A stretch of DNA of 64,000 bases, from NCBI GenBank assembly GCA_036381415.1, contig DASVCV010000012.1, positions 10,717 to 74,716 of the forward strand, written 5' to 3'. Both the position numbers and the translations under genes were made by a program. Position 1 is the first letter of the stretch. Every line of letters begins with the position of its first letter. Below are positions 1,910-26,835 of the stretch, in pieces. Below the pieces are notes generated by a model. It was given only the letters and a program-made list of their open reading frames with translations. It did no database searches and was not told where the DNA came from. The stretch comes from Patescibacteria group bacterium (lineage in GTDB: Bacteria > Patescibacteriota > Microgenomatia > UBA8517).

Positions 1910-2473
1910 ATGTCTTTAGCAAACATCACATCAAAACATAGAGGCAAATTAATAATAAAAGCCTACAAAAATAGCTTAAAGAAAAATCACAAAGTAATTG
2001 ATATTGGTTGCGGTAACGGAGTGATTACTACTCAATTAAAAGACTTCTTCAAATTTAAAGTAATCGGGTGTGACATTATAAACTATCTTTTAACCGACAT
2101 TCCATTTAGAAAAATGACTAAAGACAGTCAGATCCCCTTTCGCAATAAGTCCTTTGACATTTCCATGTTTAACGACGTCCTTCACCATATGCCAAAAGAA
2201 GTACAAATTAAAATGTTGAAAGAAGCATTAAGAGTAAGCAAAAAAGTTTTAATATTTGAAGTTCAGCCAACTATTTCAGGAACCATTTTTGATTTCATAT
2301 TAAATAAAATTCACAATTTTAATATGTATATTCCTTTTACTTTTAGAAAAACTGAGGATTGGGCAAAAGTATTTGAAAACTTAAATTGTAATTATAAAGT
2401 TATAACTGTTGATAGACCAACTTTTTACCCGTTTTCTCATGTTGCTTTCGTTTTGACAAAAACAAAGGACTAA
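1910..2473 (+). CDS. Class I SAM-dependent methyltransferase
   Basis: [12 protein letters not shown] glycine-rich SAM motif I; 187 aa; the 3' end overlaps a convergent gene. Confidence 0.7.
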
Positions 2474-4886
2474 CCTTTAATCTCCAAAACCCAATACCGC
2501 ACATCTTTGCCAACACCAACCCATGCTTAAAGGCTTTCATCTTAGATTTTCCAGCGACTCTCTTTTTGTAATGAACAGGCACTTCAATTATATCCAAGTT
2601 GTTTTCAGCAGCTCCAAACAATAAATCAAAGTCTCCCCATGATTTTCCACTCATTTTAACCTTCTTGTAATCACTTTTATATAAAGCTTTAGTACCACAA
2701 AGCGTATCTGTTATTCTTACACCTAAAAGCCAGGAAAATATCCAGCTAAAAACTAAATTTCCCACCAAATTAAGCTGTCTCATGGCTTGATCTTCCATTG
2801 GATAAATTAATCGGGTGCCATTTACAAAAGTTCCCAGCCCTTTTTCAAAAATATTAAAAAATCTCGGCAATTCCTCCGGAGGAACAGCCATATCTGCATC
2901 TAAAATCATTACGACATCCCCTTTAGAAGCATTCATCCCTTCCTTAACAGCCCAACCCTTACCTCTATTAGGTTTATACGAAACAAGCCTCAAGTTCTTA
3001 TACTTTCTCATCAATTGTTTAACTTCTCTTGCAGTCTTGTCCTTCGATCCATCGTCTACCACAATTATCTCAGTTCCCTTACCCATCTTAGGCACTCTAC
3101 TAATACAGTTTTTAATATTTTCCTCTTCATTAAAACAAGGAATAACAACTGAACAGCTAAGTTTTTTAGTAACTGCCAAATCCGCCTTGCTTGCAACAAT
3201 ATACTGCTCCAAGCAAAAACGATTTAGGAATGGGGTTTGCTGAACAACTGAATTAACCCATCTGCTGACAAAAGGTATGTGGACAGGAAATATTAATTTA
3301 TATCCACACTCTTCAACTTGATAACCTGATATATTTACAATATTTTTTAAATCCTGGAGTCTTAACCAATTCTTCTCACCTTCTGCCCTTTTTAAATTAA
3401 ACTTTTCTAAAACGGAAAAAACTTGTATCCATTTTGGGTTCAAGGAAGTAAGGATTATTTTTGATTTTGTTGTTGTATTATCTTTTAGTTTTTCAAGAAC
3501 AGTTTGGATATCTTCTAAATGATCAACTGAGTTCGGCATTATAACATAGTCAAAGCTACCTCCTATATTTATATTTTCGGGCTTGGAATTAATAAATTTA
3601 ATCTGTGAGTATCTTCTTTTTGCAGAAAGCATAATGTTCTCATCAGTATCAACACTTACAGCTTTCTTTGGATAAAGACTCGCTAGAATATCTCCCAACC
3701 CATACCCTACTTGCAATACATTTGCCCCTTCAGGAATAGACGATTTAAAAATCTGCCGCAATGAGTTATGGAAGTACCAGTTCTTTTCTCTCCAATAATC
3801 AAGACTCTTACTCATTGAAAAAGAAACAGCTTCTCTAGAAAACGCACTGTTTTTAACAATATCTTCAATCGTTGTATCAATATCATATTCATACTTCCAT
3901 TTAGGATAATGACCCTTAAACTTTTCTACAGAAGAAACATACCAAATATGGTCTCCAGTTCTATTTTCGTCTTTATATTCTGTAATTGCCTTTTTACCAC
4001 TGATATCTTCAATCTTTTTAATCGCCTCAATCATAGAAATGTTGGCAAATCTTGAACCTCCCATGTTATAAACCTCACCAATTCTTGGTTTTTGGTAAAA
4101 ATTATAAAAAGCATTTAGTAGATCATGGGAGTGGATATTATCTCTTACTTGCTTTCCTTTATACCCATATATAGTGTACTTACGTTCAGTTAAAATACAC
4201 TTAACTAAATAAGATAAAAATCCATGTTGCTCTGTACCTGCATGCCCAGATCCGGTAAGACACCCTCCCCTAAAAACACCAGTTGCTAAGTTAAAATATC
4301 TTCCATATTCCTGAACCATAAGATCCGCTGCTGCTTTTGAAACACCAAATAAAGAATGAGTGCTATTATCAATAGACATTGTTTCATCAATACCGTTTTT
4401 ATATTGATGTTTTGGACTAATCTCGTATCTAGTTTTTAATTCAATTAAGGGAAGTCTGTTAGGAGTATCTCCATAAACTTTATTTGTTGATGTATATATA
4501 AATACTCCATCAGAAGCATGACGCTTAAAACATTCAAGCAAATTTAATGTTCCATTGGCATTTACTCCAAAGTCAGTAAGAGGCTCCTTCGCAGCCCAGT
4601 CATGCGATGGCTGCGCAGCAGTGTGAATAATTAAATCAAACTTATGTTTTTCAAATATTTCTTCTAACTTATCAAAATCCCTTATATCATTCGAATAGTG
4701 AGAATAGTTTTTATATATCCTAAGAAGCTTTTTTACGTTTGGCTCAGTACTTCCTTCACTACCAAAGTAGTATTCCCTCATATTGTTGTCTATTCCAACT
4801 ACTTTGTACCCTAGATTAGAAAAAAAATGTACCGACTCAGATCCTATTAGTCCGCCTGATCCGGTAACTAAAATTGTCTTTGCCAT
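2400..4886 (-). CDS. Trifunctional fusion: NAD-dependent sugar epimerase (possibly CDP-paratose 2-epimerase-like), class I SAM methyltransferase, and GT2 glycosyltransferase (Dpm1-like)
   Basis: N-terminus [13 protein letters not shown] Rossmann fold plus [11 protein letters not shown] and HIWYVSS. Middle region [17 protein letters not shown] motif. C-terminus [37 protein letters not shown]. 828 aa. Confidence 0.75.
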
Positions 4887-4932
4887 TTCGGGTCCATATT
4901 ATATACTTACCAATTAGAAGTCAACTGTAAAT
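4887..4932. promoter_or_regulatory. Short divergent intergenic region (probable bidirectional promoter)
   Basis: 46 bp of AT-rich sequence between the divergently oriented 2400-4886 (-) and 4933-5946 (+) genes; it is the only place transcription of both could start. Confidence 0.4.
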
Positions 4933-5946
4933 ATGTCAAAAAAATATAAAATTATTGTTACTGGATCAACAGGTTTTGTAGGAAGAAGATTAATAAAACT
5001 TCTAGTTAAAAAATATAACAGCAAAGATATTCTTTGTCTAATCTGGGACCGAAATAGCAATCTTGAAAAATCAGGAAGAAAAATTCTCAAAGACCTAAAA
5101 CTCAACACAAAAAAAATTGATTTAGTAACAGGGCAGGGACTTAAAAACCTTCCCAAATCTCCAAAGCTCATTATTCATCTCGCAGCCAACACAGATACAA
5201 ATGAAAAGGATCACAGAGTAAACGACATAGGAGTTAAAAATCTACTAGATGCTTTTAGCCCCATAGCACCAGACACACATATTATCCACATTAGTACCAT
5301 GGTAGCAATGAGTGGAAGAAAAAATTGTTCTAAACCTTTCAGTGAATCAAACCCTCTTTCTCCAAACAATGAATATACTAGAACAAAAGCAAATGGAGAA
5401 AAAATCATACTGGAAAGACAAAAAAAAGAAAACTTCAGGCTAACGATTTTAAGACCAAACACTATTTATGGTAGCGGTATGAGACCAGATAGTCTTTTTG
5501 ATTTTGTTAAAAAACTTATCCTTAAAAAGTCACTACTTGCTAGACTTAATTGGCCAGGACTTTCAAGTCTTATCTGTGTTGATGATGTAGCTAAAGCAAT
5601 ACTTCTAGCTGTAAATAACCCCCCAAAACCTGGTAAGAACAATATTTTCTTCTTGCATGGAGAAAACATAACTCTTGCTGAAATAAGTCGCCAGCTTCAT
5701 CAAAAGCTAAACACTCCCTATAAAGTGATAGTAATGCCAAAATTATTTTGGAGCATGGCTTCTTTAGAAAGATATTTCATACCAATACTAGAAAAGGTAA
5801 CAAACCCAAAAACTTTCAACCTCGCCTGGAGGGCTTCACTAATAGTTGAAAATGTAATCTATTGTAATTCAACCAAAATGAAAAAAACATTTCCTACCTG
5901 GTCACCTAGAAAATTAAGTGAGGAAATAAAAAGGATAACTATTTAA
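4933..5946 (+). CDS. NAD-dependent epimerase/dehydratase family protein
   Basis: IIVTGSTGFVGRRL Rossmann motif; 337 aa; specificity not determinable. Confidence 0.7.
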   Translation: MSKKYKIIVTGSTGFVGRRLIKLLVKKYNSKDILCLIWDRNSNLEKSGRKILKDLKLNTKKIDLVTGQGLKNLPKSPKLIIHLAANTDTNEKDHRVNDIGVKNLLDAFSPIAPDTHIIHISTMVAMSGRKNCSKPFSESNPLSPNNEYTRTKANGEKIILERQKKENFRLTILRPNTIYGSGMRPDSLFDFVKKLILKKSLLARLNWPGLSSLICVDDVAKAILLAVNNPPKPGKNNIFFLHGENITLAEISRQLHQKLNTPYKVIVMPKLFWSMASLERYFIPILEKVTNPKTFNLAWRASLIVENVIYCNSTKMKKTFPTWSPRKLSEEIKRITI

Positions 5947-5948
5947 GC

Positions 5949-6947
5949 CTACTTGAAGTATTTTTCTTTTACCTGTTCCTCTATCCACTTATATGTCTCC
6001 CCCAAACCTTCCTCTAGAGATATCTTTGGCTCCCATTTAAGAACCTTCTTCAAACGAGTATTATCAGAATTTCTTCCTCTTACTCCTTGTGGTCCTTCAA
6101 TATGTTTAATTTTAATTTTCACTCCTGCAATATTTGCAACCAATTTAGCTAGGTCATTTATACTTATTAACCTATCTTGTCCTAAATTAAGTGGTTTATC
6201 ATAATCAGATCTCATCAGCTTGAAAATTCCTTCAGTGCAATCATCAATATAACAAAAAGATCTTGTCTGTTTTCCATCTCCCCATATTTCAATCTCAGGA
6301 TTACCGCTTAATTTTGCAAAAGCAACTTTTCTACACATAGCAGCAGGAGCTTTTTCTCTCCCACCCTCCCATGTCCCATGAGGACCAAAAATATTATGAA
6401 ATCTCACAATCCTAGTTTCAATTCCAAAATCCTGCTTATAATGTGTACACAACCTCTCCATCACAAGTTTTTCCCATCCATATGCATCTTGTGGAAAAGC
6501 TGGATAAGCATCATCTTCTTTTAGAGGAACAACCTTTGCTTTAGTTTGTTTAAATTCAGGGTACACACAAGCCGAAGACGTGTAGAAATACCTCTTAGCC
6601 CCATTTACTCTTGCTGCTTCAAGAGTATGGGTATTAATTAAAGAATTATTGCGAAGAATAATAGAATGATTTGATGAGATAAATCCCATCCCACCCATAT
6701 CAGCTGCCAAACCAAAAACCTCCTCAATTCCTCTCGTTGCCTGCAAGCAATTATCCCATCTTCTTAAGTCTAAAATTTCAAATTCATCAGCATCACTTTC
6801 TTTATACTCAGGATACTTAATATCTACTCCTCTAACCCAATATCCTTTTCCTTTTAAGTAAGTCACCAAATGGTGTCCAATAAATCCACCTGCTCCAGTT
6901 ACTAAAACTCTTTTTCTATTGTTCTCTGCTTTTTTCTTTTTTGGCAT
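5949..6947 (-). CDS. GDP-mannose 3,5-epimerase (GME)-like NDP-sugar epimerase
   Basis: Long collinear matches to plant GME as I recall it: LAADMGGMGFISSNHS, SSACVYPEFKQ, RFHNIFGPHGTWEGGREKAPAAMCRK, WGDGKQTRSF, GPQGVRGRNSDN. Confidence 0.75.
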   Translation of the reverse strand: MPKKKKAENNRKRVLVTGAGGFIGHHLVTYLKGKGYWVRGVDIKYPEYKESDADEFEILDLRRWDNCLQATRGIEEVFGLAADMGGMGFISSNHSIILRNNSLINTHTLEAARVNGAKRYFYTSSACVYPEFKQTKAKVVPLKEDDAYPAFPQDAYGWEKLVMERLCTHYKQDFGIETRIVRFHNIFGPHGTWEGGREKAPAAMCRKVAFAKLSGNPEIEIWGDGKQTRSFCYIDDCTEGIFKLMRSDYDKPLNLGQDRLISINDLAKLVANIAGVKIKIKHIEGPQGVRGRNSDNTRLKKVLKWEPKISLEEGLGETYKWIEEQVKEKYFK

Positions 6948-7007
6948 TGTGAAACATTATAATACCAATCTCTACAATTTGTAAAAGGCAAAAATAAAAA
7001 TTGAAAT

Positions 7008-8120
7008 TTACAAGCTTTTGAGCAAATTTAAACTTTTATTTTGAGCCGATTTCCAATCAAACTTCTTGCTCCACATAATCGCATTTTTTTGAAACTTGTT
7101 ATATTTATTTCTATTAGACATTAACTCAATACAATTCTTTGCTAATTTTTCCACATCTCCTTGAGAACACAACAATCCAGTCTTGTTATTAATTACCGAG
7201 TCTTTTACTCCACTTACGTTGTAGCCCACTACTGGCACACCCATTGAGTTTGCCTCAATATTTACCAATCCCCAACCTTCTCTTACAGAAGGGTTAAGCA
7301 TAATATCAGCTCTACCCAACAGCTCAAATTTTTTTTCCTCGCTAACAAACCCCCAAAATTTAATTATTCTATCTAGACTCAGCTCTTTAGCTCTTAACTT
7401 TAAAAATCTAAGATACTGCGTTTCACCTTTTCCTACAACCCAGAACTTACAATTATCTTTTAGTTTATTTATCAAACTAAATACCTCAATAGCCTCCTCA
7501 ATTCCTTTATCCTTAGACAAAGCGCCTAAATAAATAACTGTAGTTGCTTTTTCTCTTTTAAATTTTTTCTCTATCTTAGTAAAACCATTGTAAATTACTA
7601 CAATGTTCTTTTTTGGAATTCCCCACTTTTCTAAATCGTTCTTTGTTGATTGAGAAACAGTCATAAATAAAGTGCTTTTATATAAAAGCTTAAAAATGAA
7701 GGGCTCAAGCATTGTACCAACAACAAATGGAATTGTATTAAAAGGCCTTGGCCAAGGATTAAGTTTCCACACCTCCTTTGCAACTTCATGAATATACGCA
7801 ATCTTTTTGCCTCTAACAAAAATTGGGGTAAAAAATGGTATCCCATGAAACTGGTCAACCACTACATCATAGTTCTCATGTTTTTCAAGTATGTACCACA
7901 AAAAAGCAGCTACCTGAACACCAAAAACTTCTGATCCCCTCCTGATGATCTCCACCCCATCGACAATCTCCCTAACCTTTCCTCCACTAAAATAGGAGGT
8001 AAAAAGAGTGACCTCATGTCCTGCATTTACCCACCCCTTCGCATGCTCGTGGGTTGCAATTTCTGCTCCTCCAAAATGTGGATGTCCTGGACCTCTCCAG
8101 CTAAAAATAAGTATTCTCAT
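7008..8120 (-). CDS. GT4 (group 1) glycosyltransferase
   Basis: 370 aa; C-terminal EGWGLVNIEANSMGVPVVGYN E-x7-E motif; ATGA overlap with the upstream gene. Confidence 0.75.
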   Translation of the reverse strand: MRILIFSWRGPGHPHFGGAEIATHEHAKGWVNAGHEVTLFTSYFSGGKVREIVDGVEIIRRGSEVFGVQVAAFLWYILEKHENYDVVVDQFHGIPFFTPIFVRGKKIAYIHEVAKEVWKLNPWPRPFNTIPFVVGTMLEPFIFKLLYKSTLFMTVSQSTKNDLEKWGIPKKNIVVIYNGFTKIEKKFKREKATTVIYLGALSKDKGIEEAIEVFSLINKLKDNCKFWVVGKGETQYLRFLKLRAKELSLDRIIKFWGFVSEEKKFELLGRADIMLNPSVREGWGLVNIEANSMGVPVVGYNVSGVKDSVINNKTGLLCSQGDVEKLAKNCIELMSNRNKYNKFQKNAIMWSKKFDWKSAQNKSLNLLKSL

Positions 8121-8944
8121 CTTCCTTTAAACGTTAAGTAATGTGGAGTAATCCAAATACTTTTATTATCGCTCCTATAATATCGCTTTATTCTTAATCT
8201 ATAAAAGATTGCTAAAGTATCCCAAAACATCCAAAAAACAGTTCTTAAAAAACCCTTTGAAGTTAAAACAGATGCTCCTCCAAACTCCATTTTTAACTCA
8301 ATAGGAGCTTCGTATATTCTCTTAAATCCCAAGTAGTTTGCAACAGCAAGCATTTCTACATCAAATGCCCAAGCTTTAACTAATAATCTTGGTAAAGTCT
8401 TTTCTAACACTTTTCTTCTAAAGAATTTTAATCCAACCTGAGTATCTTTAATGTTAAGACCAAATAGCACTCTCACAAATATTTGGTACCCAAAAGATAA
8501 TATTCTTCTCTGCCATGGGTAGACAACTTTAGAAACAGGATGTCTTTTTGAACCTACTATTATGTCTGCCCTATACCACTCAAAATGTTCAAGAAGTAAA
8601 GATAAACTGTTGGGGTTTATATCAAAACCAGCATCAATAAATCCAATAATATCCCCTTTTGATTGGGCCATACCGTATTTAACAGCATGCCCTTTCCCCA
8701 AATTATTGTCATATCCAACTACCTTAATTTTTCTTCTATATCTTTTTGCTAACTTCTCAGCTTTTTCAAAAGTACCGTCGACTCTACCATCAACAACACA
8801 AATTATTTCATATGGATATCTCGTATCATCTAAAACATCCTTAACTCTCTTTAAACTTTTCTGTATTATTTTCTCTGCTTTATAAGCAGGAATGATTACT
8901 GATAAAAAAAGTGTCTCAGGCTTTTTTTGACCTCGCTTCTTCAT
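8117..8944 (-). CDS. GT2 family glycosyltransferase
   Basis: LSVIIPAYKAE..VVDGRVDGT..IDAGFD. The track start at 8950 is a TTG codon; the first ATG is at 8944. Confidence 0.8.
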   Translation of the reverse strand: MKKRGQKKPETLFLSVIIPAYKAEKIIQKSLKRVKDVLDDTRYPYEIICVVDGRVDGTFEKAEKLAKRYRRKIKVVGYDNNLGKGHAVKYGMAQSKGDIIGFIDAGFDINPNSLSLLLEHFEWYRADIIVGSKRHPVSKVVYPWQRRILSFGYQIFVRVLFGLNIKDTQVGLKFFRRKVLEKTLPRLLVKAWAFDVEMLAVANYLGFKRIYEAPIELKMEFGGASVLTSKGFLRTVFWMFWDTLAIFYRLRIKRYYRSDNKSIWITPHYLTFKGR

Positions 8945-10169
8945 ATCCAAAGTATATTAGCAGACTCATAAGAAGAAAAGAAGTTACGGCTAAGTTAACT
9001 TTCGCTATATTAAGAATTGAATCATGTATCCCAACAATAGCTAAAATCTGAATGAACGCAAAAATAACAACAAAAATAACAACTTTTGTCTTCCCAATAG
9101 ATAGATAGAAGGATGCTACTAAAGTAGAAAGACTAAATACTGCAGCAAACAATCCAAACCAAATCAAATTGCCAGAAGCAACTAAATACTTCTGTCCATA
9201 GAGAATGCCAATTGGCAAAGATGGGGTAAACAAATAAACAGCCAGTGCAATAAGTGACAAAACTGATGTCAATGCAAAACTTAGAAGAAATATTTGGATA
9301 TAATTCTCTCCTTTTGAGTGTTTCTTTGAAATCATAGGAAACATTACAGCACCTATTGGGCCTGAACCATAAAGAATTATTTTACCCACAGTAGAAAGTG
9401 CATCATATAAAGCAGCATCATTGGAATTAATAAAATGCTTAACTAATATTATATCTGTAGTTAAAAAAGAAGTTGAAGCAAGTGAAAACAAAAATACAGG
9501 CACCGTATACTTAAAGACATCTCCGCCAGCCTTAAAACTATATTTAAATTTAAAATTTTTGTAATCAGAAAGTAGTACCCATGTTATGAAAACTGAAAGA
9601 ATAGATGAAAGTAATATTCCCAGCACTCCACCCATAACTTCCAATCCAACAACTATTAATACCACACCAAAAACAACCCTACCCAGATATTCCAAATTAA
9701 TTGCAAAAACAAATTGTCCAAACTTAAGTAGTCCTTGAAGAAAGGATTTAAAAACAAGGGAGAAAAGGGCAAAGAATAATATTGGTCCAACTAAAACCAT
9801 TGTTTTTTCATCAATATGCAAAAAGTTCGATATAGAAGAAGTAGCTAATACAATGACAACTATTATTATTAATCCTAAAATTAACACTCTTCTTAAAAAC
9901 CATCCGAATATCCCCTTCACCTCATCTTTATCTTTTGCTTGTGAAACAAACTTAACAATAACTAACCCTATGAAATTAAACATTGCAGTAAATACTGCAA
10001 TTACAGAAATAACTGCTGCAAGGTCTGCATATAAAGACAAACTTAAAAATCTAGCAAGAATAATATGATATATAGAAGCAAAAAAGTTTGCTAAGTTTGT
10101 TCCAAGTATCATAACCGCACTACCAGCAAAAAAAGGATGTTTAACTACCTTTAGTATGTAAGATTTCAT
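8916..10169 (-). CDS. MOP-superfamily oligosaccharide flippase (Wzx-like polysaccharide biosynthesis protein)
   Basis: 417 aa; about 12 predicted TM helices; the architecture and position between glycosyltransferases are typical of Wzx-type flippases. Confidence 0.6.
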   Translation of the reverse strand: MKSYILKVVKHPFFAGSAVMILGTNLANFFASIYHIILARFLSLSLYADLAAVISVIAVFTAMFNFIGLVIVKFVSQAKDKDEVKGIFGWFLRRVLILGLIIIVVIVLATSSISNFLHIDEKTMVLVGPILFFALFSLVFKSFLQGLLKFGQFVFAINLEYLGRVVFGVVLIVVGLEVMGGVLGILLSSILSVFITWVLLSDYKNFKFKYSFKAGGDVFKYTVPVFLFSLASTSFLTTDIILVKHFINSNDAALYDALSTVGKIILYGSGPIGAVMFPMISKKHSKGENYIQIFLLSFALTSVLSLIALAVYLFTPSLPIGILYGQKYLVASGNLIWFGLFAAVFSLSTLVASFYLSIGKTKVVIFVVIFAFIQILAIVGIHDSILNIAKVNLAVTSFLLMSLLIYFGYEEARSKKA

Positions 10170-11269
10170 TTGGCTAAGCTTTCATATACAGCCAACGTGC
10201 CTTGGGCTGTGTTTTGCCAGGAGTATTTTTTAACAGCTTCTCTCCCACTATCAATATATTTATTTCTAAGTTTTTTGTCTTCAATAATTCTTTTGAACTT
10301 AGTTGCAAAATCCTCAGGTTTTTTAGCATCTGCAAAATAAGCACCATCTCCTGCAATTTCAACAAGTGCTTGAGTTCTAGATGCAACCACTGGCGTACCA
10401 CAGGTCAGTGCATCAACTACTGGTATTCCATACCCTTCATAATATGAAGGTTGACAGTAAATTGATGCGAGGTTGTAAATAGCTACCAAATCCTCATCAG
10501 GAACAAATCCTAATCTTTTTATATTCTTTGATTTGTCAAAAGCTTTTAATATCTGTTTAAAATGTGCAAGCTCTGGATGTGGTTTGTTTAAAACAAATCT
10601 AAACCAGTCCTTTAAACCTTTTATGTCATTTATTCCCATCCCTTGAGTTTCAATATCCATTGCTTGTTTTCCAGCAATAACCAAAGGAATATCTGCAATT
10701 TCACAAGCTTTAATTAAGGTTGGAATATTTTTATTGTAATTAACATCCCCAACGTATAAAACAAATTTGTCAGGTAAGCCATATTTTTCTCTAGCTTTAT
10801 TTAAGGTCTTCTGATCACCAATTTTTCTATAAATTGGCTTAGGTGCCAAATAAACTACATGTATTTTTTCTGGTCTTATTCCCAAAAATCTTACAATATC
10901 TTTCTTTGAAGTCTCAGAAATAGTAATTACTGCGTCTGCTCTTTTAACAAGAAACTTATTCAAATTAAATTTAATCTTTCCCTTTAATCCAGGTGGATAG
11001 TGCTTAGGATAAATTAGAGGAATTAAATCATGGATAGTAACTACTGTTTTTGTTTTTTTTATTAAAGGAAGGTTTACAAAAAAAGGATTAAAAAACTGAT
11101 AATGTGCAACATCAAATTTTGATAAGTCAGTTTTTGTAAAATCAACTGCTTCGACTTTTACCCCATTAAGCTTCTCCAAATGCTCTATAAGAAGCCTAGT
11201 ATGCACACCAATCCCTCTTACTGAGTGTCCTGATGTTAATGGTCCTGTATCAATTGCAACTTTAATCAT
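10166..11269 (-). CDS. GT4 (group 1) glycosyltransferase
   Basis: N-terminus MIKVAIDTGPL, C-terminus EGYGIPVVDALTCGTPVVAS. The track start at 11287 is TTG; the ATG at 11269 makes an ATGA overlap with the upstream stop. Confidence 0.75.
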   Translation of the reverse strand: MIKVAIDTGPLTSGHSVRGIGVHTRLLIEHLEKLNGVKVEAVDFTKTDLSKFDVAHYQFFNPFFVNLPLIKKTKTVVTIHDLIPLIYPKHYPPGLKGKIKFNLNKFLVKRADAVITISETSKKDIVRFLGIRPEKIHVVYLAPKPIYRKIGDQKTLNKAREKYGLPDKFVLYVGDVNYNKNIPTLIKACEIADIPLVIAGKQAMDIETQGMGINDIKGLKDWFRFVLNKPHPELAHFKQILKAFDKSKNIKRLGFVPDEDLVAIYNLASIYCQPSYYEGYGIPVVDALTCGTPVVASRTQALVEIAGDGAYFADAKKPEDFATKFKRIIEDKKLRNKYIDSGREAVKKYSWQNTAQGTLAVYESLAK

Positions 11270-12141
11270 AGTGCTTCTCCTGACCAATATTTAAAATAGG
11301 CAATTGGAAAATGAAATGCAGAAAATATTGACCAAACAAACCCTCTCATTCCATCCTCAAAGCCTTTATTTTTAATATATAAATTAACAAACACTGAAAA
11401 AGGCTTTAGGAATGAATAATAAATAAGTGAAAGGAAATTCTTTGATACCTTTTTCACTTTAAATTCTGCTGCGGTTAAACTTGTATATCTATTAGCTCTA
11501 GACAAGTATCTACTAAAGGTAGGTGAGTCATAATGCTCTAAATCATTAAACAGCCAAGCCACTTCTCCTTGTATTTTCATCTGTTCATGAACCGATTTTG
11601 CAGGCAAATATGCCTTTCCATTCTTAATAAGTCTAATAACAGCATCAGGATAAACTCCTGCATGAATAAGTGGTTTTCCTAAAAACATGTTTAGTCTTGG
11701 TATAAAAAATGCAACAATCTCACCCTTCTCACCTAATTTGCCATCTCTTTCTTCAATAATGCTTTGGTGCCTTTGAAATAATCTCCATTTCTTCATACTA
11801 CTTGGTCTTCTCCTACATATTTCCTCACTAGTCATATTAATCACTTCTTTAATTTCTTCTGCAAGTTCTTTTATAACTACCTCATCAGCATCCAATTGAA
11901 GTATCCAATCACCCTTTGCTTTCTCAATTGCCTTTTGTTTAGTTATATGGAAAACATCATGATGAGGCTCTTCATAAACCTTCGCGCCCAATCTTTTTGC
12001 AATCTCTGCTGTCTTATCAGTTGAATATTCATCAACAACAATAATCTCATCAGCTATATTCTTAACTGACTTCAGGCACCTTTCTATATTAGCTTCTTCA
12101 TTTCTGGTAGCAAGCACTACTGACAATTTCATCTTATCCAT
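11266..12141 (-). CDS. GT2 family glycosyltransferase (with a C-terminal extension)
   Basis: LSVVLATRNEEANI..VVDEYSTDKT..LDADE; paralogous to 37922-38686 and 41077-41979. The track start at 12156 is TTG; the first ATG is at 12141. Confidence 0.8.
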   Translation of the reverse strand: MDKMKLSVVLATRNEEANIERCLKSVKNIADEIIVVDEYSTDKTAEIAKRLGAKVYEEPHHDVFHITKQKAIEKAKGDWILQLDADEVVIKELAEEIKEVINMTSEEICRRRPSSMKKWRLFQRHQSIIEERDGKLGEKGEIVAFFIPRLNMFLGKPLIHAGVYPDAVIRLIKNGKAYLPAKSVHEQMKIQGEVAWLFNDLEHYDSPTFSRYLSRANRYTSLTAAEFKVKKVSKNFLSLIYYSFLKPFSVFVNLYIKNKGFEDGMRGFVWSIFSAFHFPIAYFKYWSGEAL

Positions 12142-12145
12142 ATTA

Positions 12146-13801
12146 CTAGTTTGCAACTATTTTAAAAACAGGCTTTCCATCAGGTCCATATATTACTCTT
12201 ACTATATTAGCTTCATTTGGAATCTCAGTATCCGTCCCCACAATTAAAGTATTTGGATTATCCACCTTTGCCTCATCAAATCTTATGGTTGAGAAATAAT
12301 ATTTATCAAAGTGGTTAACAGTTGAAAATCCAAATCCATCCCTAGGTGTAAGTGTATGCTCAGCCTGGAACTTAGCAGGCGAATACTTCATGTAGAAAAG
12401 AAAAAGTATATATGGCTGGTCATATCTATCAGTAACCAATATTTTCTGGTATGCACTCGTATGCCCTTGCACATAACTTACTAAGTCTTTTAATCCATAC
12501 TGAGATGAGAATGGATACTCCTTTGCCATATGCACATAATACATGTGTAAGTATCTTCCAAAATTAAGACAAATAGCTGCAACAACAACTATGTAGAATG
12601 CATTCCTTAAATTTGTTCTACTCACTCTTTTTCTAAACTGTGCAACAATGCACATCAGTCCAAACTCACTTAATATCACAAGAGGAATTATCATATTATG
12701 AGCACGTAATGCTCCAGGTGCCTGAAAAGTAAGTGCAGAAGCAACAGGAGCAACAATTAGCCACCACATAATTGTGGCATGCTCCTTCTTCAAATTCCTC
12801 ACAATTACAATTAACCCAATTCCTACAAGCACAACATCATATATATACATCTCTCCTGTTTCTGGAACTTTATTTCTTTGCACTTCATCTCCTGACAAAA
12901 ACAAAAACTCTCCCCAATAATGCTTTCCCCAATTTTCCAAGAATGCCAGCGAATAGTTAACTGCTTTATTATGAAGAGATTTTGCAAGTAAACTGCTTAT
13001 GTTTGAGTGTTCTCCTCTTTGTTCCTCTAGCCTTGATTTAGGTCCCGGATCTGCAAAAAGACCAACTCCAGCTGCTCTGGATAATGCTCCTCCCTTTGTC
13101 AGATCAAGTGCCAGAGGAAGTACAAGAACTAATCCAACTACTGCAGCAATAATAATTGTTCTCTTGCTCTTTAAAATATCTTTAAAATAAATTGCAAAAA
13201 GTCCAATTCCCAGTAGTGGAACAACAACTCTTGCAGCATGGTATGTATATAAAGCCAAAACAAAAGAAACTAGACACCCATAATAATACTTAGGTTTCTT
13301 TAAACCCTTTAGGAAAAGAAGAACTCCTAGGGATATAAAAAAGGTTGCTACATTTGCTTCCCATCCCCCTCTTGAAAAATGTATATGCCAGGGTGATATT
13401 GCAAGAAAAAAGCTTGCAACAAGTGATCCTTCTTCATCATCAAATAATTCCTTGACAAGCATATACACAAGTAGCACCGTGACTACCCCTAAAAACGCAG
13501 CTGGAGCCCGCACCGACATCTCGTTTAATCCAAAAAGCTTTACAAAAGGAACAACAATGTAGAAATAAAGACCAGGTTTATAATCATTAAATGACTGAAA
13601 GTGAATCGGCCAAGGGTTGCCATGTTCATCTTTTCCAGTTTGAATTAAAGAATAAGCATTGTAGCCAATTGCTGCTTCATCTGCATTAAGAGCAGGATAT
13701 GAATCAAGTTGATAAAACCTTAGAGTAAAAGCTAGAAGAACAATAAGTATAAGTGTTATTCTTCTTTTGTTTGATATTAATCCTAATAATCTTTCTTTCA
13801 T
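12146..13801 (-). CDS. PMT/GT39-like GT-C membrane glycosyltransferase (paralog A1); polyprenol-phosphate-sugar dependent by family
   Basis: Loop-1 motif NADEAAIGYNAYSLIQTGKDEHG..FQSFNDYKPGLYFY resembles the PMT DE(V)HFGKFASYY pattern; about 11 TM helices plus a C-terminal soluble domain. Confidence 0.7.
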   Translation of the reverse strand: MKERLLGLISNKRRITLILIVLLAFTLRFYQLDSYPALNADEAAIGYNAYSLIQTGKDEHGNPWPIHFQSFNDYKPGLYFYIVVPFVKLFGLNEMSVRAPAAFLGVVTVLLVYMLVKELFDDEEGSLVASFFLAISPWHIHFSRGGWEANVATFFISLGVLLFLKGLKKPKYYYGCLVSFVLALYTYHAARVVVPLLGIGLFAIYFKDILKSKRTIIIAAVVGLVLVLPLALDLTKGGALSRAAGVGLFADPGPKSRLEEQRGEHSNISSLLAKSLHNKAVNYSLAFLENWGKHYWGEFLFLSGDEVQRNKVPETGEMYIYDVVLVGIGLIVIVRNLKKEHATIMWWLIVAPVASALTFQAPGALRAHNMIIPLVILSEFGLMCIVAQFRKRVSRTNLRNAFYIVVVAAICLNFGRYLHMYYVHMAKEYPFSSQYGLKDLVSYVQGHTSAYQKILVTDRYDQPYILFLFYMKYSPAKFQAEHTLTPRDGFGFSTVNHFDKYYFSTIRFDEAKVDNPNTLIVGTDTEIPNEANIVRVIYGPDGKPVFKIVAN

Positions 13802-15489
13802 TTTAATATTTCTACAACTCTAAAAGCTGTCTTTCCATCTAAATATTTTATTTCCTTAATCAGTTTAAACCTGTTTGGATCACTTGAATCCTGTACGGGC
13901 ATTTTAATTGGATCTGCAACAATTAATTCACCTTTGTGCCCCTGGTCAGCTGACCAATCAATTGCACTAAATTCAATATTGTCTAATTTTTCAACCAATC
14001 CCACATCCCCCATTGGGCTTTCAGTTAAATGAGCCTGTGCTTGGTATTTAGCTGGGTCATACTTTTCAAAAAATAAAAAGTAAATATATGGCTGAGCATA
14101 GCTCTGTTCTACCTTTATTTTCTTGTAGTTTCCTTGTACTGGATAAACTGCTTCAACTATTTGTTTGTAGCCATATTCCCAATAAATAGAATCATGTTTA
14201 GGTAAATGTACAAAATAAGAGTCTAAATAGTAAACATAATTAGCAGTATATATAAGAGCAAGGGCAACAAAGATAATTCTATACCTGCTAATAAGTAAAT
14301 AAGCTCCATGAGCCATAATAATTACAAAAGGAATTACCATATTGAACGCCCTAACAGCATGCACCTGATCCCTAGATAATATCGAAGGAAGTGTAGCTAA
14401 AATAAGCCAAAGTCCTACAAATAAATTTTCCTTCTTTATCAACGAAGTCGGCAAAGCTTTGCTTAGCTTTCCCTTTACCATTGCCGCAAACCCAACTGCC
14501 ACTAAGAAGGCATCGCTAACCAAGAACATCCCCATATTAGGAGGTGAATGTCTTGGGTTAGTCCAATCCCCTTCAAAAAACAAAAATCTAACGGAAAAAT
14601 GATTAAAGAATCTGCCTAGCACTCCTCTTGCAAAATTAAGCCACTCGGGATGAAATAAGTAATAGGATAAGCTTCCTTTCACTTCTTGTCCTTCATCCAA
14701 AAAATCTTGTAAATATTTTTCAGGTCTGGGATTCGAAAAAACACTAAAGATAGCAAGCCTGCCAGTCTGCCCATTAAATAAACTTAGTATTATTGGTATA
14801 CAAACCAATACCCCAACAGCAATCGACTGCAAAATAACTTTTCTTTCTATTTTTAATAACTCCTTAAGGTACAAAACCAAAAGAAGTAAAACTACAATTC
14901 CTGTTGAAAGTTTTGCCCCTTGATATGCAGTAAGGGTTAAAGCAAAAAATACTGCTGAAAATATCAAGTATTTTCCCTTCTTGAAAGATTTGAAAAAAAA
15001 GTAAATACCAATAAGTGTAAGGGTCAAAGAAAGATTTATCTCCCAAGCACCTCTTGAAAAATGTATATGCCAGGAATTAATTGCTAAAAGAAAAGCTCCT
15101 AGAAGTGCAAGCTTTTCCTCTTTCCAAACTTCTTTAAGTACTAAATAAAGAAGTACTACTGCAAGTATCCCTGCTATTGCACTTGGGAGCCTTACTGCAA
15201 ACTCATTGAGCCCAAATATTAAAACTGAAGGAATTGCAGCATAAACATAAAGACCTGGTTTAAAATCTCCAAAAGACTTAAAAATAATTGGGAAAAGTGT
15301 TCCATACTCATCTCTTCCTGTTTTTAAAATTGAATAGGCATTGTATCCCAATGATGCTTCATCAGCAGTCAGATGAGGTGGAACATTACTTAGATTAACC
15401 AACCTCAAAACTGCAGCAAGAATAATTATCAAAAACAAGAACACAGTTATTTTTGATTTAATTTTCATAATATTTTTAATAAATAACAT
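13798..15489 (-). CDS. PMT/GT39-like GT-C membrane glycosyltransferase (paralog A2)
   Basis: TADEASLGYNAYSILKTGRDEYG..FKSFGDFKPGLYVY; 563 aa. Confidence 0.7.
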   Translation of the reverse strand: MLFIKNIMKIKSKITVFLFLIIILAAVLRLVNLSNVPPHLTADEASLGYNAYSILKTGRDEYGTLFPIIFKSFGDFKPGLYVYAAIPSVLIFGLNEFAVRLPSAIAGILAVVLLYLVLKEVWKEEKLALLGAFLLAINSWHIHFSRGAWEINLSLTLTLIGIYFFFKSFKKGKYLIFSAVFFALTLTAYQGAKLSTGIVVLLLLVLYLKELLKIERKVILQSIAVGVLVCIPIILSLFNGQTGRLAIFSVFSNPRPEKYLQDFLDEGQEVKGSLSYYLFHPEWLNFARGVLGRFFNHFSVRFLFFEGDWTNPRHSPPNMGMFLVSDAFLVAVGFAAMVKGKLSKALPTSLIKKENLFVGLWLILATLPSILSRDQVHAVRAFNMVIPFVIIMAHGAYLLISRYRIIFVALALIYTANYVYYLDSYFVHLPKHDSIYWEYGYKQIVEAVYPVQGNYKKIKVEQSYAQPYIYFLFFEKYDPAKYQAQAHLTESPMGDVGLVEKLDNIEFSAIDWSADQGHKGELIVADPIKMPVQDSSDPNRFKLIKEIKYLDGKTAFRVVEILK

Positions 15490-15497
15490 ATCCGTTT

Positions 15498-17192
15498 CTA
15501 GTTGCTATATATTTCAAAAGCTTTCTTTCCATCTAAAAAGTCATATGTTTTCAACAGCTTCCATCCTTTGGGATAATTACCAGGACTTGTAATAAGTAAG
15601 CACTTAGTTTTTGAGCAATCCACATTCTCCTTTTTACTCTCCAGTACAAATGTAGTCCCTTCTTTAGGAATTTGCCAGTCATTCACAAAGTAAAATTTAT
15701 CAAACCTATCCACCCAATACCAGTTGCTTTGGAAAAATCGGATTAGATTTGGATCATTTCTATATTTTTCCGGACTCCACCCTGAAAAGAAAAGAAGAAA
15801 TTCATGTGGTTCTCCATACTTCTTAGTCACTATAATCTTTTCATATTGAGAAGAGTTCTCATTTGCATAGCTATACACCTCTTTGTATCCGTATTGCCAA
15901 GCCCAAGAATAGTTATTTCTATAGCTGTTAGCATACACATTCAAATAATTTCCAAGCAATATAAACATAACTCCGCCAAACAGCAAGCTCACAAAAACTC
16001 TATACTTAGGCATTCTCTTTATAACCTCAACCAAACCAACTGCACTAAGTATTTGCGGAATAGGTAGCAATGTAGTTGCCCTAATAAGAGCAGATTCATC
16101 TTGTGTAATGGCTGCAGGAATAGGCGCCAGAATTAGCCATAATAATAGTAATCTCCAGTCTCTGTCTTTTATAGCCTTCTTGATCAAAATAAATAGTCCT
16201 AAATAAAAAAACGGCAATTCAGCCAGATATAAAACTCCATGATTTGGAACACTAAATTGATACTGAGTTCCACCTTTTAAAAACAAAAAGCTCGGAGAAA
16301 AATAATTTATATAGTTTCTTGCAAAATTAACTGAAAGATATGTGGCTTTGTTATATAAAAGCGACTTAAACGGCAGCTTTGAGCTATTACGCAAATCGTT
16401 TATTTGATTAATAGCTCCCTGATCAATCAAAAAAACTACATTAGACCTTGCCCTAGCTTGAGGATTTAAAAGAATAAAAGGCAGAGGTGCAAAAAACAAG
16501 AGTATGAAAGCAAATGAAACAACAATCTCTACACTTCTTCTAGAAATCTTCTGGATAAACTCCTTTCTATAAATCAAAAGTAAACCAACCAATATTAATG
16601 GCGAAAAAATTCTAGTTGAATGATATGAAAAAAGAGTCGAACCCAGAAATAAAAATGAAATAGGTGTAAACCATCTGTTCTTTTCTCTATTAAAAAAGAC
16701 AGCCATTGCAGTTGTCAGAAAAAATACAGACAAGTTGGACTGAAAAACTGCCCTTGATGGAAACAAAAGCCACGGATCAATTGCAGCAAAAAAAGAACCA
16801 ATAAGTGCAATTTTGCGGTTTTTTGTTATCCCAAGAGCAAGAAAATATACAGAAACAATTGTCAAAGTGCCTAAAAACGCATGTGGAAAGCGTATTGCAA
16901 CCTCATTAAGCCCAAAAACAGCTATAAAAGGAATTGTTAAGTAAAGATTAAGAGGAAGGGGATAGTCTCCATAAGCTCTAAAATTTGCAATTGGGAAAGC
17001 CTGACCCCACTCATCCTTGCCTGTCTTAAGGATAGAATAGGCATTATATCCATGGCTTACCTCATCCCAATTAAGGGAAGGTGGAACAAAATTTAAGTAA
17101 GAAAATCTTAAAACCGCTCCAAGCACCAATATTAGAACTAAATATTTATTTTTAAGTAAAAAGCCAATAATGTTATTTTTTATTTTCTTCAT
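15498..17192 (-). CDS. PMT/GT39-like GT-C membrane glycosyltransferase (paralog A3)
   Basis: NWDEVSHGYNAYSILKTGKDEWG. The track start at 17228 is TTG; the ATG at 17192 gives MKKIKNN. Confidence 0.7.
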   Translation of the reverse strand: MKKIKNNIIGFLLKNKYLVLILVLGAVLRFSYLNFVPPSLNWDEVSHGYNAYSILKTGKDEWGQAFPIANFRAYGDYPLPLNLYLTIPFIAVFGLNEVAIRFPHAFLGTLTIVSVYFLALGITKNRKIALIGSFFAAIDPWLLFPSRAVFQSNLSVFFLTTAMAVFFNREKNRWFTPISFLFLGSTLFSYHSTRIFSPLILVGLLLIYRKEFIQKISRRSVEIVVSFAFILLFFAPLPFILLNPQARARSNVVFLIDQGAINQINDLRNSSKLPFKSLLYNKATYLSVNFARNYINYFSPSFLFLKGGTQYQFSVPNHGVLYLAELPFFYLGLFILIKKAIKDRDWRLLLLWLILAPIPAAITQDESALIRATTLLPIPQILSAVGLVEVIKRMPKYRVFVSLLFGGVMFILLGNYLNVYANSYRNNYSWAWQYGYKEVYSYANENSSQYEKIIVTKKYGEPHEFLLFFSGWSPEKYRNDPNLIRFFQSNWYWVDRFDKFYFVNDWQIPKEGTTFVLESKKENVDCSKTKCLLITSPGNYPKGWKLLKTYDFLDGKKAFEIYSN

Positions 17193-23127: not shown

Positions 23128-23135
23128 TCCCATTA

Positions 23136-26134: not shown

Positions 26135-26819
26135 TAAGCACTTTTGAAACTTTTATCTTTTCATAGACATACTTTACTCCTGATAAAATTGATAAGAATA
26201 TAAATGGGAACAAAACAAATGGACCAATAGGGTTTGATTGTCCAATTAATCCAATCAAAAAAATTGGAATAGCAAAAGACAAGAAAAATATCTTTTTTTC
26301 TTTCTTGTAATCAAAATTTAAAAATCCTATTACAAAAAATGGAAGTAGAATATAAGGAAACTTCTCAAACTCCTTAAATCCTACTCTTTCATTAGGATGG
26401 TTTGAGAAAAAATATAAATTTAAACTCAATGCATCACTAACATTGTTTTTAATTCTATATATGGACAACAACCAGGGTTTGTTTTCAAACCAATTAGCAG
26501 TAGGTATCCATAAATTTTTATTAAATATTTTTATATACACAGGTGGATATTCTTTTAATCTTTGTATCTGGTACAGTTTTTCTTGATCACCCAACTGGAC
26601 TAAAGGAATAGTCTTAGTAGTTGCAAACTGAAATGCAATAAGAATAAGCATGCTAATAATAAAAATCTTATTTATTTTTTTCTCTTTTACGCTTTTATAT
26701 ATAAAAAATGTTGCAGCTAAGACAGCAGTAAATATAAAGAAATTAAAATGTAGTATTTTCCAAATCCAAATATTTGCAAAAAGAAAAATAAAAAATAATT
26801 TTAAATTAAGATTAGTCAT
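26055..26819 (-). CDS. Internal fragment related to the PMT-like family (loop plus FSP/FLF region plus about 4 TM); lacks the DE loop and the C-terminal domain
   Basis: LNLYFFSNHPNERVG..FPYILLPFFVIGFLNF parallels YFSPSFLFLKGG..LYLAELPFFYLGLFIL; overlaps the 24398-26134 start by 80 nt. Confidence 0.35.
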   Translation of the reverse strand: MTNLNLKLFFIFLFANIWIWKILHFNFFIFTAVLAATFFIYKSVKEKKINKIFIISMLILIAFQFATTKTIPLVQLGDQEKLYQIQRLKEYPPVYIKIFNKNLWIPTANWFENKPWLLSIYRIKNNVSDALSLNLYFFSNHPNERVGFKEFEKFPYILLPFFVIGFLNFDYKKEKKIFFLSFAIPIFLIGLIGQSNPIGPFVLFPFIFLSILSGVKYVYEKIKVSKVLNERIVVGLFIVCYLLVFVQTIIYATL

Positions 26820-26835
26820 AAATTCTAAACATGTC

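What the first reader, a model, noticed from the sequence alone, without database searches (positions are those of the whole stretch)
5949..6947. Bacterial homolog of plant-type GDP-mannose 3,5-epimerase: a hint of L-galactose or L-gulose in the glycan
Long collinear identity to GME motifs (LAADMGGMGFI.SNHS, SSACVYPEFKQ, RFHNI.GP.GTW.GGREKAPAA.CRK, GP.GVRGRNSDN). GME makes GDP-L-galactose and GDP-L-gulose and is uncommon in bacteria. Together with rfbB (dTDP-6-deoxyhexose route) and two further epimerases, the locus likely builds an unusual sugar repertoire.
Basis: partly seen in the sequence, partly recalled or inferred. Interest (0 to 1): 0.55.

Follow-up and report, generated by a model that had tools for sequence, protein, structure and literature searches.

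The report
Ordinary bacterial GDP-mannose 3,5-epimerase gene
[quoted passage not shown] It sits in a large surface-glycan locus of an uncultured Patescibacteria bacterium, but the enzyme family is already known, characterised and widespread in environmental bacteria.

Summary
Window 5949..6947 is one 332-aa ORF on the minus strand, and it carries all four quoted motifs. It matches crystallised plant GDP-mannose 3,5-epimerases (GM35E/GME) end to end: E = 6e-121, 407 bits, 55% identity. The next SDR family scores only 110 bits. All eight residues that define GM35E are present: Ser/Tyr/Lys triad, Cys/Lys acid-base pair, Arg306, Arg243 and Asn203 equivalents. A predicted model superposes best on GME structures, and dN/dS against a 92%-identical relative is about 0.03.

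The rarity claim needs softening. A capped search gave 8000 database clusters, and at least 598 species genomes from many phyla and some archaea encode 64-81%-identical proteins. A bacterial GM35E (Methylacidiphilum) was characterised in 2019.

The window comes from a Patescibacteria MAG (Woesebacteria/Daviesbacteria-like). The gene closes a Wzx-GT2-GT4 block inside a conserved glycan module. Two of seven related loci have that module without GME, so GME looks like an exchangeable sugar-supply cassette. rfbB is real but lies 54 kb away. The neighbouring "epimerase" is a Patescibacteria-specific SDR whose conserved partner is a methyltransferase-GT2 protein, not GME. L-Gal or L-Gul in the glycan is a reasonable inference but untested.

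Verdict: a new member of a known kind, of low interest.

The parts
5949..6947 (-). GDP-mannose 3,5-epimerase (GM35E/GME) homologue, 332 aa. Cofactor motif GAGGFIG (G18/G21/G24). Defining residues: S125, C127, Y156, K160, N185, K199, R229, R292.
   Evidence: ORF and translation. PDB phmmer E = 6e-121 to 2c59 and 8sg0. Residue mapping, with the residues invariant in 120 homologues. AF2 model pTM 0.80, with the top 14 Foldseek hits all GME at TM 0.80-0.86. dN/dS about 0.03.
6956..6985 (-). Promoter-like site TTTACA-18-TATAAT (11 of 12 matches) in the 60-bp gap upstream of GME. Its -10 element ends 8 nt before the ATG and no Shine-Dalgarno is visible, so the gene may have its own promoter and a near-leaderless mRNA. 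This is a consensus match only.
   Evidence: The sequence is nearly identical in L081, but that locus is closely related throughout, so this adds little.
7008..8120 (-). GT4 glycosyltransferase immediately upstream of GME and co-directional with it. It is the conserved neighbour of GME in all five GME-containing related loci, and is also present in the two related loci without GME.
   Evidence: Pfam Glycos_transf_1 / Glyco_transf_4. Synteny.
8117..8950 (-). GT2 glycosyltransferase; its gene overlaps those of the GT4 and the flippase, in the same co-directional run.
   Evidence: synteny.
8916..10169 (-). Wzx-like polysaccharide flippase (Polysacc_synt). It marks the module as lipid-linked oligosaccharide assembly.
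   Evidence: synteny.
10166..12156 (-). A further GT4 (10166..11287) and GT2 (11266..12156) of the same overlapping minus-strand gene run.
4933..5946 (+). Extended SDR of 337 aa with TGxxGxxG and YxxxK motifs, convergent with GME (stop codons 2 nt apart). It belongs to a Patescibacteria-restricted family of unknown specificity. Its conserved partner is the methyltransferase-GT2 gene, not GME.
   Evidence: only 113 clusters, every source name given is Patescibacteria, and P0121 is 100% identical. Synteny.
2400..4886 (-). 828-aa fusion protein: N-terminal extended SDR (GalE/RfbB-like, below all NCBIfam cut-offs), a SAM methyltransferase, and a GT2. Part of the conserved module.
   Evidence: Orthologues are 827-831 aa in L081 and L085, and 447-464 aa without the SDR domain in L082 and L087-L089.
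It is genuine but 54 kb from GME and not in the same gene run.
   Evidence: TIGR01181, 453.6 bits against a cut-off of 365.1; Pfam.

Best explanation
The ORF encodes a cytosolic, NAD+-bound extended short-chain dehydrogenase that works as a GDP-D-mannose 3,5-epimerase.

Mechanism, taken from the plant and Methylacidiphilum enzymes and inferred here from complete conservation of the catalytic residues:
- Cys127 and Lys199 then remove and re-add protons at C5 and C3 from opposite faces, with Arg292 lowering the pKa of the Cys.
- The 4-keto group is reduced back.

In this Patescibacteria genome the gene is the last one of a co-directional Wzx-GT2-GT4 block inside a 64-kb glycosylation island. Most likely it supplies GDP-L-Gal (or GDP-L-Gul) to one of the locus's glycosyltransferases for a lipid-linked surface glycan. 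Related genomes carry the same assembly module without GME, or with another SDR in its place. GME therefore behaves as an exchangeable sugar-supply cassette that varies glycan composition between lineages.

Shown: family membership, catalytic residues, fold, purifying selection, synteny. Inferred: substrate, products, and that the product enters the glycan built by this locus.
For: Sequence:
- 407 bits (E = 6e-121) over the full length to AtGME and Myrciaria GME; the next family scores 110 bits.
- 55% identity to AtGME. The biochemically proven bacterial MfGM35E is 50.5% identical to AtGME (PMC6678494).

Residues:
- The equivalents of S143, C145, Y174, K178, N203, K217, R243 and R306 are all present, and invariant in the 120 best homologues. 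These are the features the GM35E review uses to separate GM35E from GMER and GalE (PMC8787198).

Fold and selection:
- AF2 model pTM 0.80.
- Foldseek ranks 14 GME chains first (E = 1e-37 to 1e-34, TM 0.80-0.86), then GalE at 1e-23.
- dN/dS is about 0.03.
- GME is the best-conserved gene of the syntenic block: 78% against 34-64% for its neighbours when compared with Woesebacteria L082.

Context:
- The gene run has overlapping genes: GT2-GT4-Wzx-GT2-GT4-GME.
- The same module occurs in L081, L082, L085 and L089 with GME, and in L087 and L088 without it.
- Across other phyla, GME homologues sit beside Wzz/tyrosine-kinase, Wza, Wzm/Wzt, GT2, WecG and UGDH genes.
- JGI already annotates many homologues as GDP-D-mannose 3',5'-epimerase.
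Against: - No enzyme assay exists for this protein or for any Patescibacteria homologue.
- No GDP-mannose supply genes (manB, manC) and no identifiable L-galactosyl or L-gulosyl transferase were found in the 64-kb window. The rest of the genome could not be inspected.
- The AF2 model has low confidence (pLDDT < 50) over residues 83-91, 127-153 and 194-196. These segments contain or flank active-site residues, so active-site geometry is supported by sequence only.
- The GT4 next to GME is also present in loci lacking GME, so no glycosyltransferase can yet be tied to the GME product.
- The gene may have its own promoter, which weakens the operon argument.
Confidence: 0.85

Rival explanations
1. 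The protein belongs to the GM35E clade but has a different physiological substrate or a different used product. Possibilities include another GDP-hexose, the minor C3 product GDP-altrose, or GDP-L-gulose only, as proposed for BlmG in bleomycin biosynthesis. 'L-galactose in the glycan' would then be wrong even though the chemistry is the same.
For: Characterised GM35Es give a product mixture, and the consuming transferase decides which product is used (PMC6678494; PMC8787198). No GDP-mannose genes are in the window.
Against: Every substrate-contacting motif named in the review is identical to the plant enzyme. Overall identity of 55% to AtGME is higher than that of the proven bacterial enzyme.
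Confidence: 0.1
2. It is a mis-assigned member of a neighbouring SDR family: GDP-L-fucose synthase (GMER), UDP-glucose 4-epimerase, UDP-xylose synthase or a GDP-sugar 4-epimerase.
For: NCBIfam has no GME model, and its best hit is GDP-L-fucose synthase (130.6 bits). Some sources name homologues only 'NAD-dependent epimerase/dehydratase'.
Against: The GDP-fucose synthase hit is far below its 500-bit cut-off, and GalE scores 73 bits against a cut-off of 262. PDB scores for these families are 98-110 bits, against 407 for GME. The catalytic base is Lys, not the His of GMER. The Cys-acidifying residue is Arg, not the Lys of GMER. GalE lacks the Cys/Lys pair.
Confidence: 0.02
3. The enzyme is a true GM35E, but its product is not used by this glycan locus. 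It could feed a soluble L-galactose pathway, a lipid head group or another glycoconjugate encoded elsewhere, and the gene would be here only by cassette insertion.
For: A possible own promoter lies directly upstream. The module works without GME in L087 and L088. No transferase co-varies visibly with GME.
Against: GME occupies the same position, after the GT4, in five independent Patescibacteria loci. In other phyla it is embedded in polysaccharide export loci. No GDP-L-galactose phosphorylase or other ascorbate-pathway gene is in the window.
Confidence: 0.05

Closest known systems
Arabidopsis thaliana GDP-mannose 3,5-epimerase (AtGM35E/GME; PDB 2C54, 2C59, 2C5A, 2C5E) and Myrciaria dubia GME (8SG0, 8SKB)
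   Same: Full-length collinear alignment with 55% identity. The catalytic triad, the Cys/Lys acid-base pair and the Arg306, Arg243 and Asn203 equivalents are identical. The predicted fold is the same (TM 0.86).
   Different: It has a GxxGxxG cofactor motif instead of the Arabidopsis GxxGxxA. It lacks about 27 N-terminal and about 30 C-terminal residues of the plant protein (332 aa against 377 aa). It sits in a prokaryotic glycan-locus context rather than in ascorbate or cell-wall metabolism.
Methylacidiphilum fumariolicum SolV MfGM35E (UniProt I0K0X9), the first characterised bacterial GM35E (PMC6678494)
   Same: A bacterial enzyme with a GxxGxxG motif and the conserved Cys, Lys and Arg residues. 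Its hypothesised role is in cell-surface polysaccharide or LPS synthesis. It gives the 80:15:5 GDP-Man: L-Gal: L-Gul equilibrium expected here.
   Different: The phylum differs (Verrucomicrobiota against Patescibacteria). MfGM35E is thermostable. The window protein is uncharacterised.
GDP-L-fucose synthase (GMER/Fcl/WcaG)
   Same: An extended SDR that also performs 3,5-epimerisation on a GDP-sugar with a catalytic Cys. It is the best NCBIfam hit.
   Different: GMER uses His as its base and a Lys to acidify the Cys, and it reduces with NADPH. The window protein has Lys199 and Arg292 at those positions. It scores only about 98-130 bits against GMER.
BlmG/TlmG-type sugar epimerases of bleomycin-family clusters
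   Same: Predicted bacterial GM35E homologues that supply an L-sugar (GDP-L-gulose) to a glycosyltransferase. This is cited in PMC8787198 and otherwise rests on my own knowledge.
   Different: They sit in a secondary-metabolite context, not a Wzx/GT surface-glycan locus. No comparison was made here.

Membership tests
GDP-mannose 3,5-epimerase (GM35E/GME, EC 5.1.3.18) | [quoted passage not shown] | tested here: met
   GAGGFIG at residues 18-24. Pfam PF01370 at 149.5 bits. The AF2 model has alternating strand-helix topology and pTM 0.80.
GDP-mannose 3,5-epimerase (GM35E/GME, EC 5.1.3.18) | Catalytic triad [ST]xnYxxxK for C4 oxidation and reduction (At S143, Y174, K178) | tested here: met
   S125, Y156 and K160 are present, and invariant in 120 homologues.
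GDP-mannose 3,5-epimerase (GM35E/GME, EC 5.1.3.18) | Cys/Lys acid-base pair for C5 and C3 epimerisation (At C145, K217). Lys rather than His separates GM35E from GMER; presence of the pair separates it from GalE. | tested here: met
   C127 in SSACVYPEF and K199 in GGREKAPAA. The criterion comes from PMC8787198.
GDP-mannose 3,5-epimerase (GM35E/GME, EC 5.1.3.18) | Arg that acidifies the catalytic Cys (At R306; Lys in GMER), the diphosphate-binding Arg (R243), and the conserved Asn (N203) | tested here: met
   R292 (GVRGRNSDN), R229 (QTRSF) and N185 (RFHNI).
GDP-mannose 3,5-epimerase (GM35E/GME, EC 5.1.3.18) | Closer in sequence and fold to characterised GM35Es than to any other nucleotide-sugar SDR | tested here: met
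   407 bits to GME against at most 110 bits to the next family. Foldseek ranks 1-14 are all GME.
GDP-mannose 3,5-epimerase (GM35E/GME, EC 5.1.3.18) | [quoted passage not shown] | not testable with these tools
   This needs recombinant enzyme with HPLC or NMR analysis. The proven bacterial precedent is MfGM35E.
GDP-mannose 3,5-epimerase (GM35E/GME, EC 5.1.3.18) | GDP-mannose is available in the organism (manB/manC or equivalent) | tested here: inconclusive
   Pfam found no nucleotidyltransferase or phosphomannomutase among the 49 ORFs of at least 150 aa; ten had no Pfam match. Only 64 kb of the genome is visible.
GDP-L-fucose synthase (GMER) | Score above the NCBIfam NF047922 cut-off, a His catalytic base, and a Lys acidifying the Cys | tested here: not met
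   130.6 bits against a cut-off of 500. Lys199 and Arg292 stand at those positions.
UDP-glucose 4-epimerase (GalE) | Score above the TIGR01179 cut-off, and no additional acid-base pair | tested here: not met
   73.4 bits against a cut-off of 262.3. The Cys/Lys pair is present.

The most novel reading that the evidence does not exclude
Microgenomates-type Patescibacteria (Woesebacteria/Daviesbacteria-like) may decorate their surface with an L-galactose- or L-gulose-containing glycan. It could also be O-methylated, since several methyltransferases sit in the module. The glycan would be built by a conserved Wzx-GT2-GT4 / methyltransferase-GT2 / lineage-specific SDR module, into which GME is swapped in or out as a sugar-supply cassette. 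That would be the first L-Gal or L-Gul glycan described in the Candidate Phyla Radiation, and a handle on strain-level surface variation in these episymbionts.
Probability: 0.45. Interest if true: 0.35.

Novelty: new member of a known kind. Interest (0 to 1): 0.2.

Why it matters
The practical value is modest. The finding adds a confidently assignable GM35E from Patescibacteria to a family of biotechnological interest, since it offers a one-enzyme route to L-sugars. It also shows that close GM35E homologues are far more widespread in uncultured bacteria and some archaea than the 18-43 sequences cited in the literature.

For Patescibacteria biology, it nominates L-Gal or L-Gul as a variable component of a conserved surface-glycan module. 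This could be tested by expressing the enzyme and the neighbouring transferases. It does not reveal a new mechanism or a new kind of system.

Tried and rejected
- **Exact-sequence look-ups.** Look-ups of the window GME and of P0121 (100% identical to the neighbouring SDR) found no contig. The source contig itself could not be retrieved. Origin was inferred from the name attached to P0121 ('Patescibacteria group bacterium') and from synteny.
- **Literature searches.** Two searches failed on term syntax or returned nothing. The structure paper of Major et al. 2005 (PMC3315049) is not held, so guanine-contact residues could not be listed and checked.
- **A universal partner gene for GME.** I clustered 1259 ORFs from 84 loci plus the window. 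No universal partner emerged. The commonest neighbour, a Wzz/tyrosine-kinase gene, occurs in only 18 loci.
- **The convergent SDR (4933..5946) as a second step acting on the GME product.** Rejected as the leading idea. Its invariant neighbour in seven loci is the methyltransferase-GT2 gene, and it is present in L087 and L088, which lack GME.
- **An intrinsic terminator between the convergent genes.** None was found; the stop codons are 2 nt apart.
- **NCBIfam.** It has no GME model, so it could neither confirm nor refute the assignment.
- **Searches not run.** I did not run the 1.84-billion-representative search, because its E-value bins would mix GME with other SDRs. The second structure job and the third homologue search were judged unnecessary.

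Full report
**1. Observation**

Window 5949..6947 is a single ATG-initiated ORF of 332 codons on the minus strand. An 83-aa antisense ORF at 5953..6204 lies wholly inside the gene; I treat it as spurious and did not test it.

**2. What the protein is**

*Sequence.* A phmmer search of all PDB sequences puts the crystallised GDP-mannose 3,5-epimerases first.
- Arabidopsis GME (2c59, 2c54, 2c5a, 2c5e) scores E = 6e-121 to 4e-120, about 405 bits. Myrciaria dubia GME (8sg0) scores E = 1.5e-120.
- Both align end to end, query 12-329 against chain 30-345.
- The next families follow after a gap of about 300 bits: UDP-xylose synthase 110 bits, GDP-sugar 4-epimerase 103, GDP-fucose synthase 98-100, GalE 98.
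- Identity to AtGME is 174/314 = 55%. That is slightly higher than the 50.5% reported for the one biochemically characterised bacterial enzyme, MfGM35E of Methylacidiphilum fumariolicum (PMC6678494).

*Family libraries.* Pfam sees only the generic Epimerase family. NCBIfam has no GME model. Its best hits are far below their cut-offs: GDP-fucose synthase 130.6 against 500, and GalE 73.4 against 262.3.

*Defining residues.* The GM35E review (PMC8787198) lists the residues that define the family and separate it from GMER and GalE:
- the S143/Y174/K178 triad;
- the C145/K217 acid-base pair (GMER has His in place of the Lys; GalE has neither residue);
- R306, which acidifies the Cys (Lys in GMER);
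- R243, which binds the diphosphate;
- N203.

I mapped these through a MAFFT alignment, allowing for the +2 offset of the 2c59 SEQRES numbering. The window protein has S125, C127, Y156, K160, N185, K199, R229 and R292. All eight are invariant in the 120 best database homologues. The cofactor motif is GxxGxxG, as in MfGM35E, and not the Arabidopsis GxxGxxA.

*Fold.* An AlphaFold2 model built on 32 homologues has pTM 0.80 and mean pLDDT 78. Confidence is low in three active-site loops (residues 83-91, 127-153, 194-196), so active-site geometry rests on sequence alone. Foldseek against PDB returns 14 GME chains first (E = 2e-37 to 4e-34, TM 0.80-0.86). GalE and UXS follow only at E of about 1e-23.

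*Selection.* The gene is under strong purifying selection. Against the 92%-identical orthologue in L081, dN = 0.052 and dS = 1.53, so dN/dS is about 0.03, with dS close to saturation. It is also the most conserved gene of its syntenic block: 78% identity against 34-64% for its neighbours when compared with Woesebacteria L082.

**3. How common it is**

A 2011 survey did find only 43 bacterial and 2 archaeal close homologues, the fewest of any plant nucleotide-sugar enzyme family (PMC3220709). The 2019 paper counted 18 annotated bacterial sequences in UniProt. Present data look different.
The best 120 are all 75-92% identical and full length, and many are already named 'GDP-D-mannose 3',5'-epimerase' by JGI.
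The best 80 are 64-81% identical.
- Those 80 come from Chloroflexota, Acidobacteriota, Gemmatimonadota, Planctomycetota, Myxococcota/'delta proteobacteria', Actinomycetota, Rhodothermales, Pseudomonadales and Saccharibacteria, and from the archaeal Methanomicrobiales/Methanoregula.

So the family is a minority trait: at least 0.3% of species, as a lower bound. It is nevertheless phylogenetically broad and well known.

**4. Organism and locus**

*Organism.* The neighbouring SDR (4933..5946) is 100% identical to P0121, named 'MAG TPA: NAD(P)-dependent oxidoreductase [Patescibacteria group bacterium]'. The syntenic relatives include a Candidatus Woesebacteria bacterium (P0016/L082) and a Candidatus Daviesbacteria bacterium (P0157/L085). 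G+C is 30-38%.

*Locus.* The whole 64-kb window is a glycosylation island, almost entirely on the minus strand. It contains:
- ten PMT_2/PMT-type GT-C proteins recognised by Pfam, plus at least two or three divergent paralogues;
- many GT2 and GT4 genes;
- two Wzx-like flippases;
- a YfhO protein;
- several methyltransferases.

*Position of GME.* GME is the last gene of a run with overlapping genes: GT2 (11266..12156), GT4, Wzx (8916..10169), GT2, GT4 (7008..8120), then GME. A 60-bp gap precedes GME. It holds a strong sigma-70-like match, TTTACA-18-TATAAT, whose -10 element ends 8 nt before the ATG. This is a consensus match only. If real, GME could also be transcribed by itself as a near-leaderless mRNA.

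**5. Conserved module and the cassette idea**

Seven Patescibacteria loci share a core. It comprises a Wzx, a GT2, a GT4, the lineage-specific SDR next to a methyltransferase-GT2 protein (divergent in six loci, co-directional in L085), a 187-aa methyltransferase, a GT2 and a further GT4.
- Five of the seven have GME directly after the GT4: the window, L081, L082, L085 and L089.
- L087 has no GME.
- L088 has an unrelated 337-aa SDR in GME's position.

I read GME as an exchangeable sugar-supply cassette within a conserved assembly module, comparable to sugar-pathway swapping in O-antigen loci. That reading is an inference from seven loci.

In other phyla, GME homologues also lie in polysaccharide loci. 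Their recurring neighbours are Wzz/tyrosine-kinase (18 loci, often immediately upstream), Wza-type export protein (13), Wzm and Wzt ABC transporter (12 and 10), GT2s, WecG/TagA (10) and UDP-glucose/GDP-mannose dehydrogenase (10). No single partner gene is universal.

**6.

- *rfbB.* 60904..61911 is a bona fide dTDP-glucose 4,6-dehydratase (TIGR01181, 453.6 bits against a cut-off of 365.1). It is 54 kb away, beside trmD and an RNaseH-like gene, and no rmlA/C/D is in view.
- *The convergent SDR.* 4933..5946 has intact TGxxGxxG and YxxxK motifs but no informative relative. Its best PDB hit scores 43 bits and all NCBIfam hits are far below cut-off. Its family has only 113 clusters, and every source name given is Patescibacteria. 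Its constant neighbour is the methyltransferase-GT2 gene, not GME.
- *The second 'epimerase'.* This is the N-terminal domain of the 828-aa SDR-methyltransferase-GT2 fusion.

**7. Mechanism and confidence**

By homology, the protein oxidises C4 of GDP-mannose with its bound NAD+. It epimerises C5 and C3 through Cys127 and Lys199, then re-reduces C4. [quoted passage not shown] I hold the enzyme assignment at about 0.9, and the claim that the product enters the glycan built by this locus at about 0.6.

Three things are missing:
- any assay of this protein or a Patescibacteria homologue;
- a GDP-mannose source in the window (none among the 49 ORFs of at least 150 aa);
- an identifiable L-galactosyl transferase.

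**8. Novelty**

Bacterial GM35Es are known, one is characterised, and annotation pipelines already name close homologues. No paper in the searchable library links GME to Patescibacteria; the three papers returned for those terms have titles and abstracts on other topics, and I did not read them. The finding is therefore a new member of a known kind, and of low interest. The only mildly novel angle is an L-sugar-containing, variable surface glycan in Microgenomates.

Noticed in passing
window 12146..30344, 38683..40227, 49739..56173: There is a very large paralogous array of GT-C glycosyltransferases (PMT_2/PMT, about 500-590 aa each). Ten are recognised by Pfam. At least two more (24398..26134 and 26836..28620) are recognisable only by BLAST to their neighbours, at 25-34% identity. 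Several are paired with small GT2 genes resembling polyprenyl-phosphate hexose synthases (51318..52067, 56155..56850).
   Followed up: partly
window 2400..4886 (-): An 828-aa three-domain fusion: extended SDR (residues 5-342), SAM methyltransferase (about 382-525) and GT2 (579-790). The orthologues in L081 and Daviesbacteria L085 are also 827-831 aa. Those in L082 and L087-L089 are 447-464 aa and lack the SDR domain, so the SDR domain was gained or lost within the lineage.
   Followed up: partly
window 4933..5946 (+): An extended SDR family that appears restricted to Patescibacteria: only 113 clusters in 5.8 billion proteins, and no solved structure above 43 bits. It always lies next to the methyltransferase-GT2 gene. 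One member (P0216, WWE3) is itself fused to a methyltransferase. Its function is unknown.
   Followed up: partly
L082 17164..18501 (also L083, L084): The Woesebacteria relative encodes a 445-aa protein of Pfam family RGP (PF03214), the reversibly glycosylated polypeptide / UDP-arabinopyranose mutase family. It lies in the same glycan locus, near a UDP-glucose dehydrogenase fragment and further SDRs. This is another enzyme family best known from plants in a CPR glycan locus.
   Followed up: no
window 46697..49711 (-), 17173..18669 (-), 23136..24401 (-): A 1004-aa membrane protein with a PTPS_related domain (PF10131). It has two shorter paralogues in the window (35% and 29% identity) that have no Pfam hit of their own.
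   Followed up: no
window 1910..2473 (+) and 2400..4886 (-): The convergent methyltransferase and fusion-protein ORFs overlap by 74 nt at their 3' ends. GME and the SDR are convergent with stop codons only 2 nt apart, and no terminator-like hairpin was found in 4700..8300. The genome is very compact and shows no obvious intrinsic terminators.
   Followed up: no
L001-L080 (e.g. L012 Saccharibacteria, L051/L053 Methanomicrobiales): GME homologues from unrelated phyla, and from methanogenic archaea, are 64-81% identical to the Patescibacteria protein. Neighbouring genes are only 34-64% identical, even between two Patescibacteria. This suggests extreme constraint, horizontal transfer, or both.
   Followed up: no
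L087 511..1524: The GME-less version of the module carries a GT10 (fucosyltransferase-family) gene together with an SIS-domain protein and a 360-aa SDR. This fits the idea that alternative sugar-supply sets are plugged into the same assembly module.
   Followed up: no
window 58464..59654 (-): A GT2 fused to a GtrA/DPMS transmembrane domain, of the polyprenyl-phosphate sugar synthase type. It lies next to a Yip1-domain membrane protein. It may be the donor-forming step for the GT-C array.
   Followed up: no
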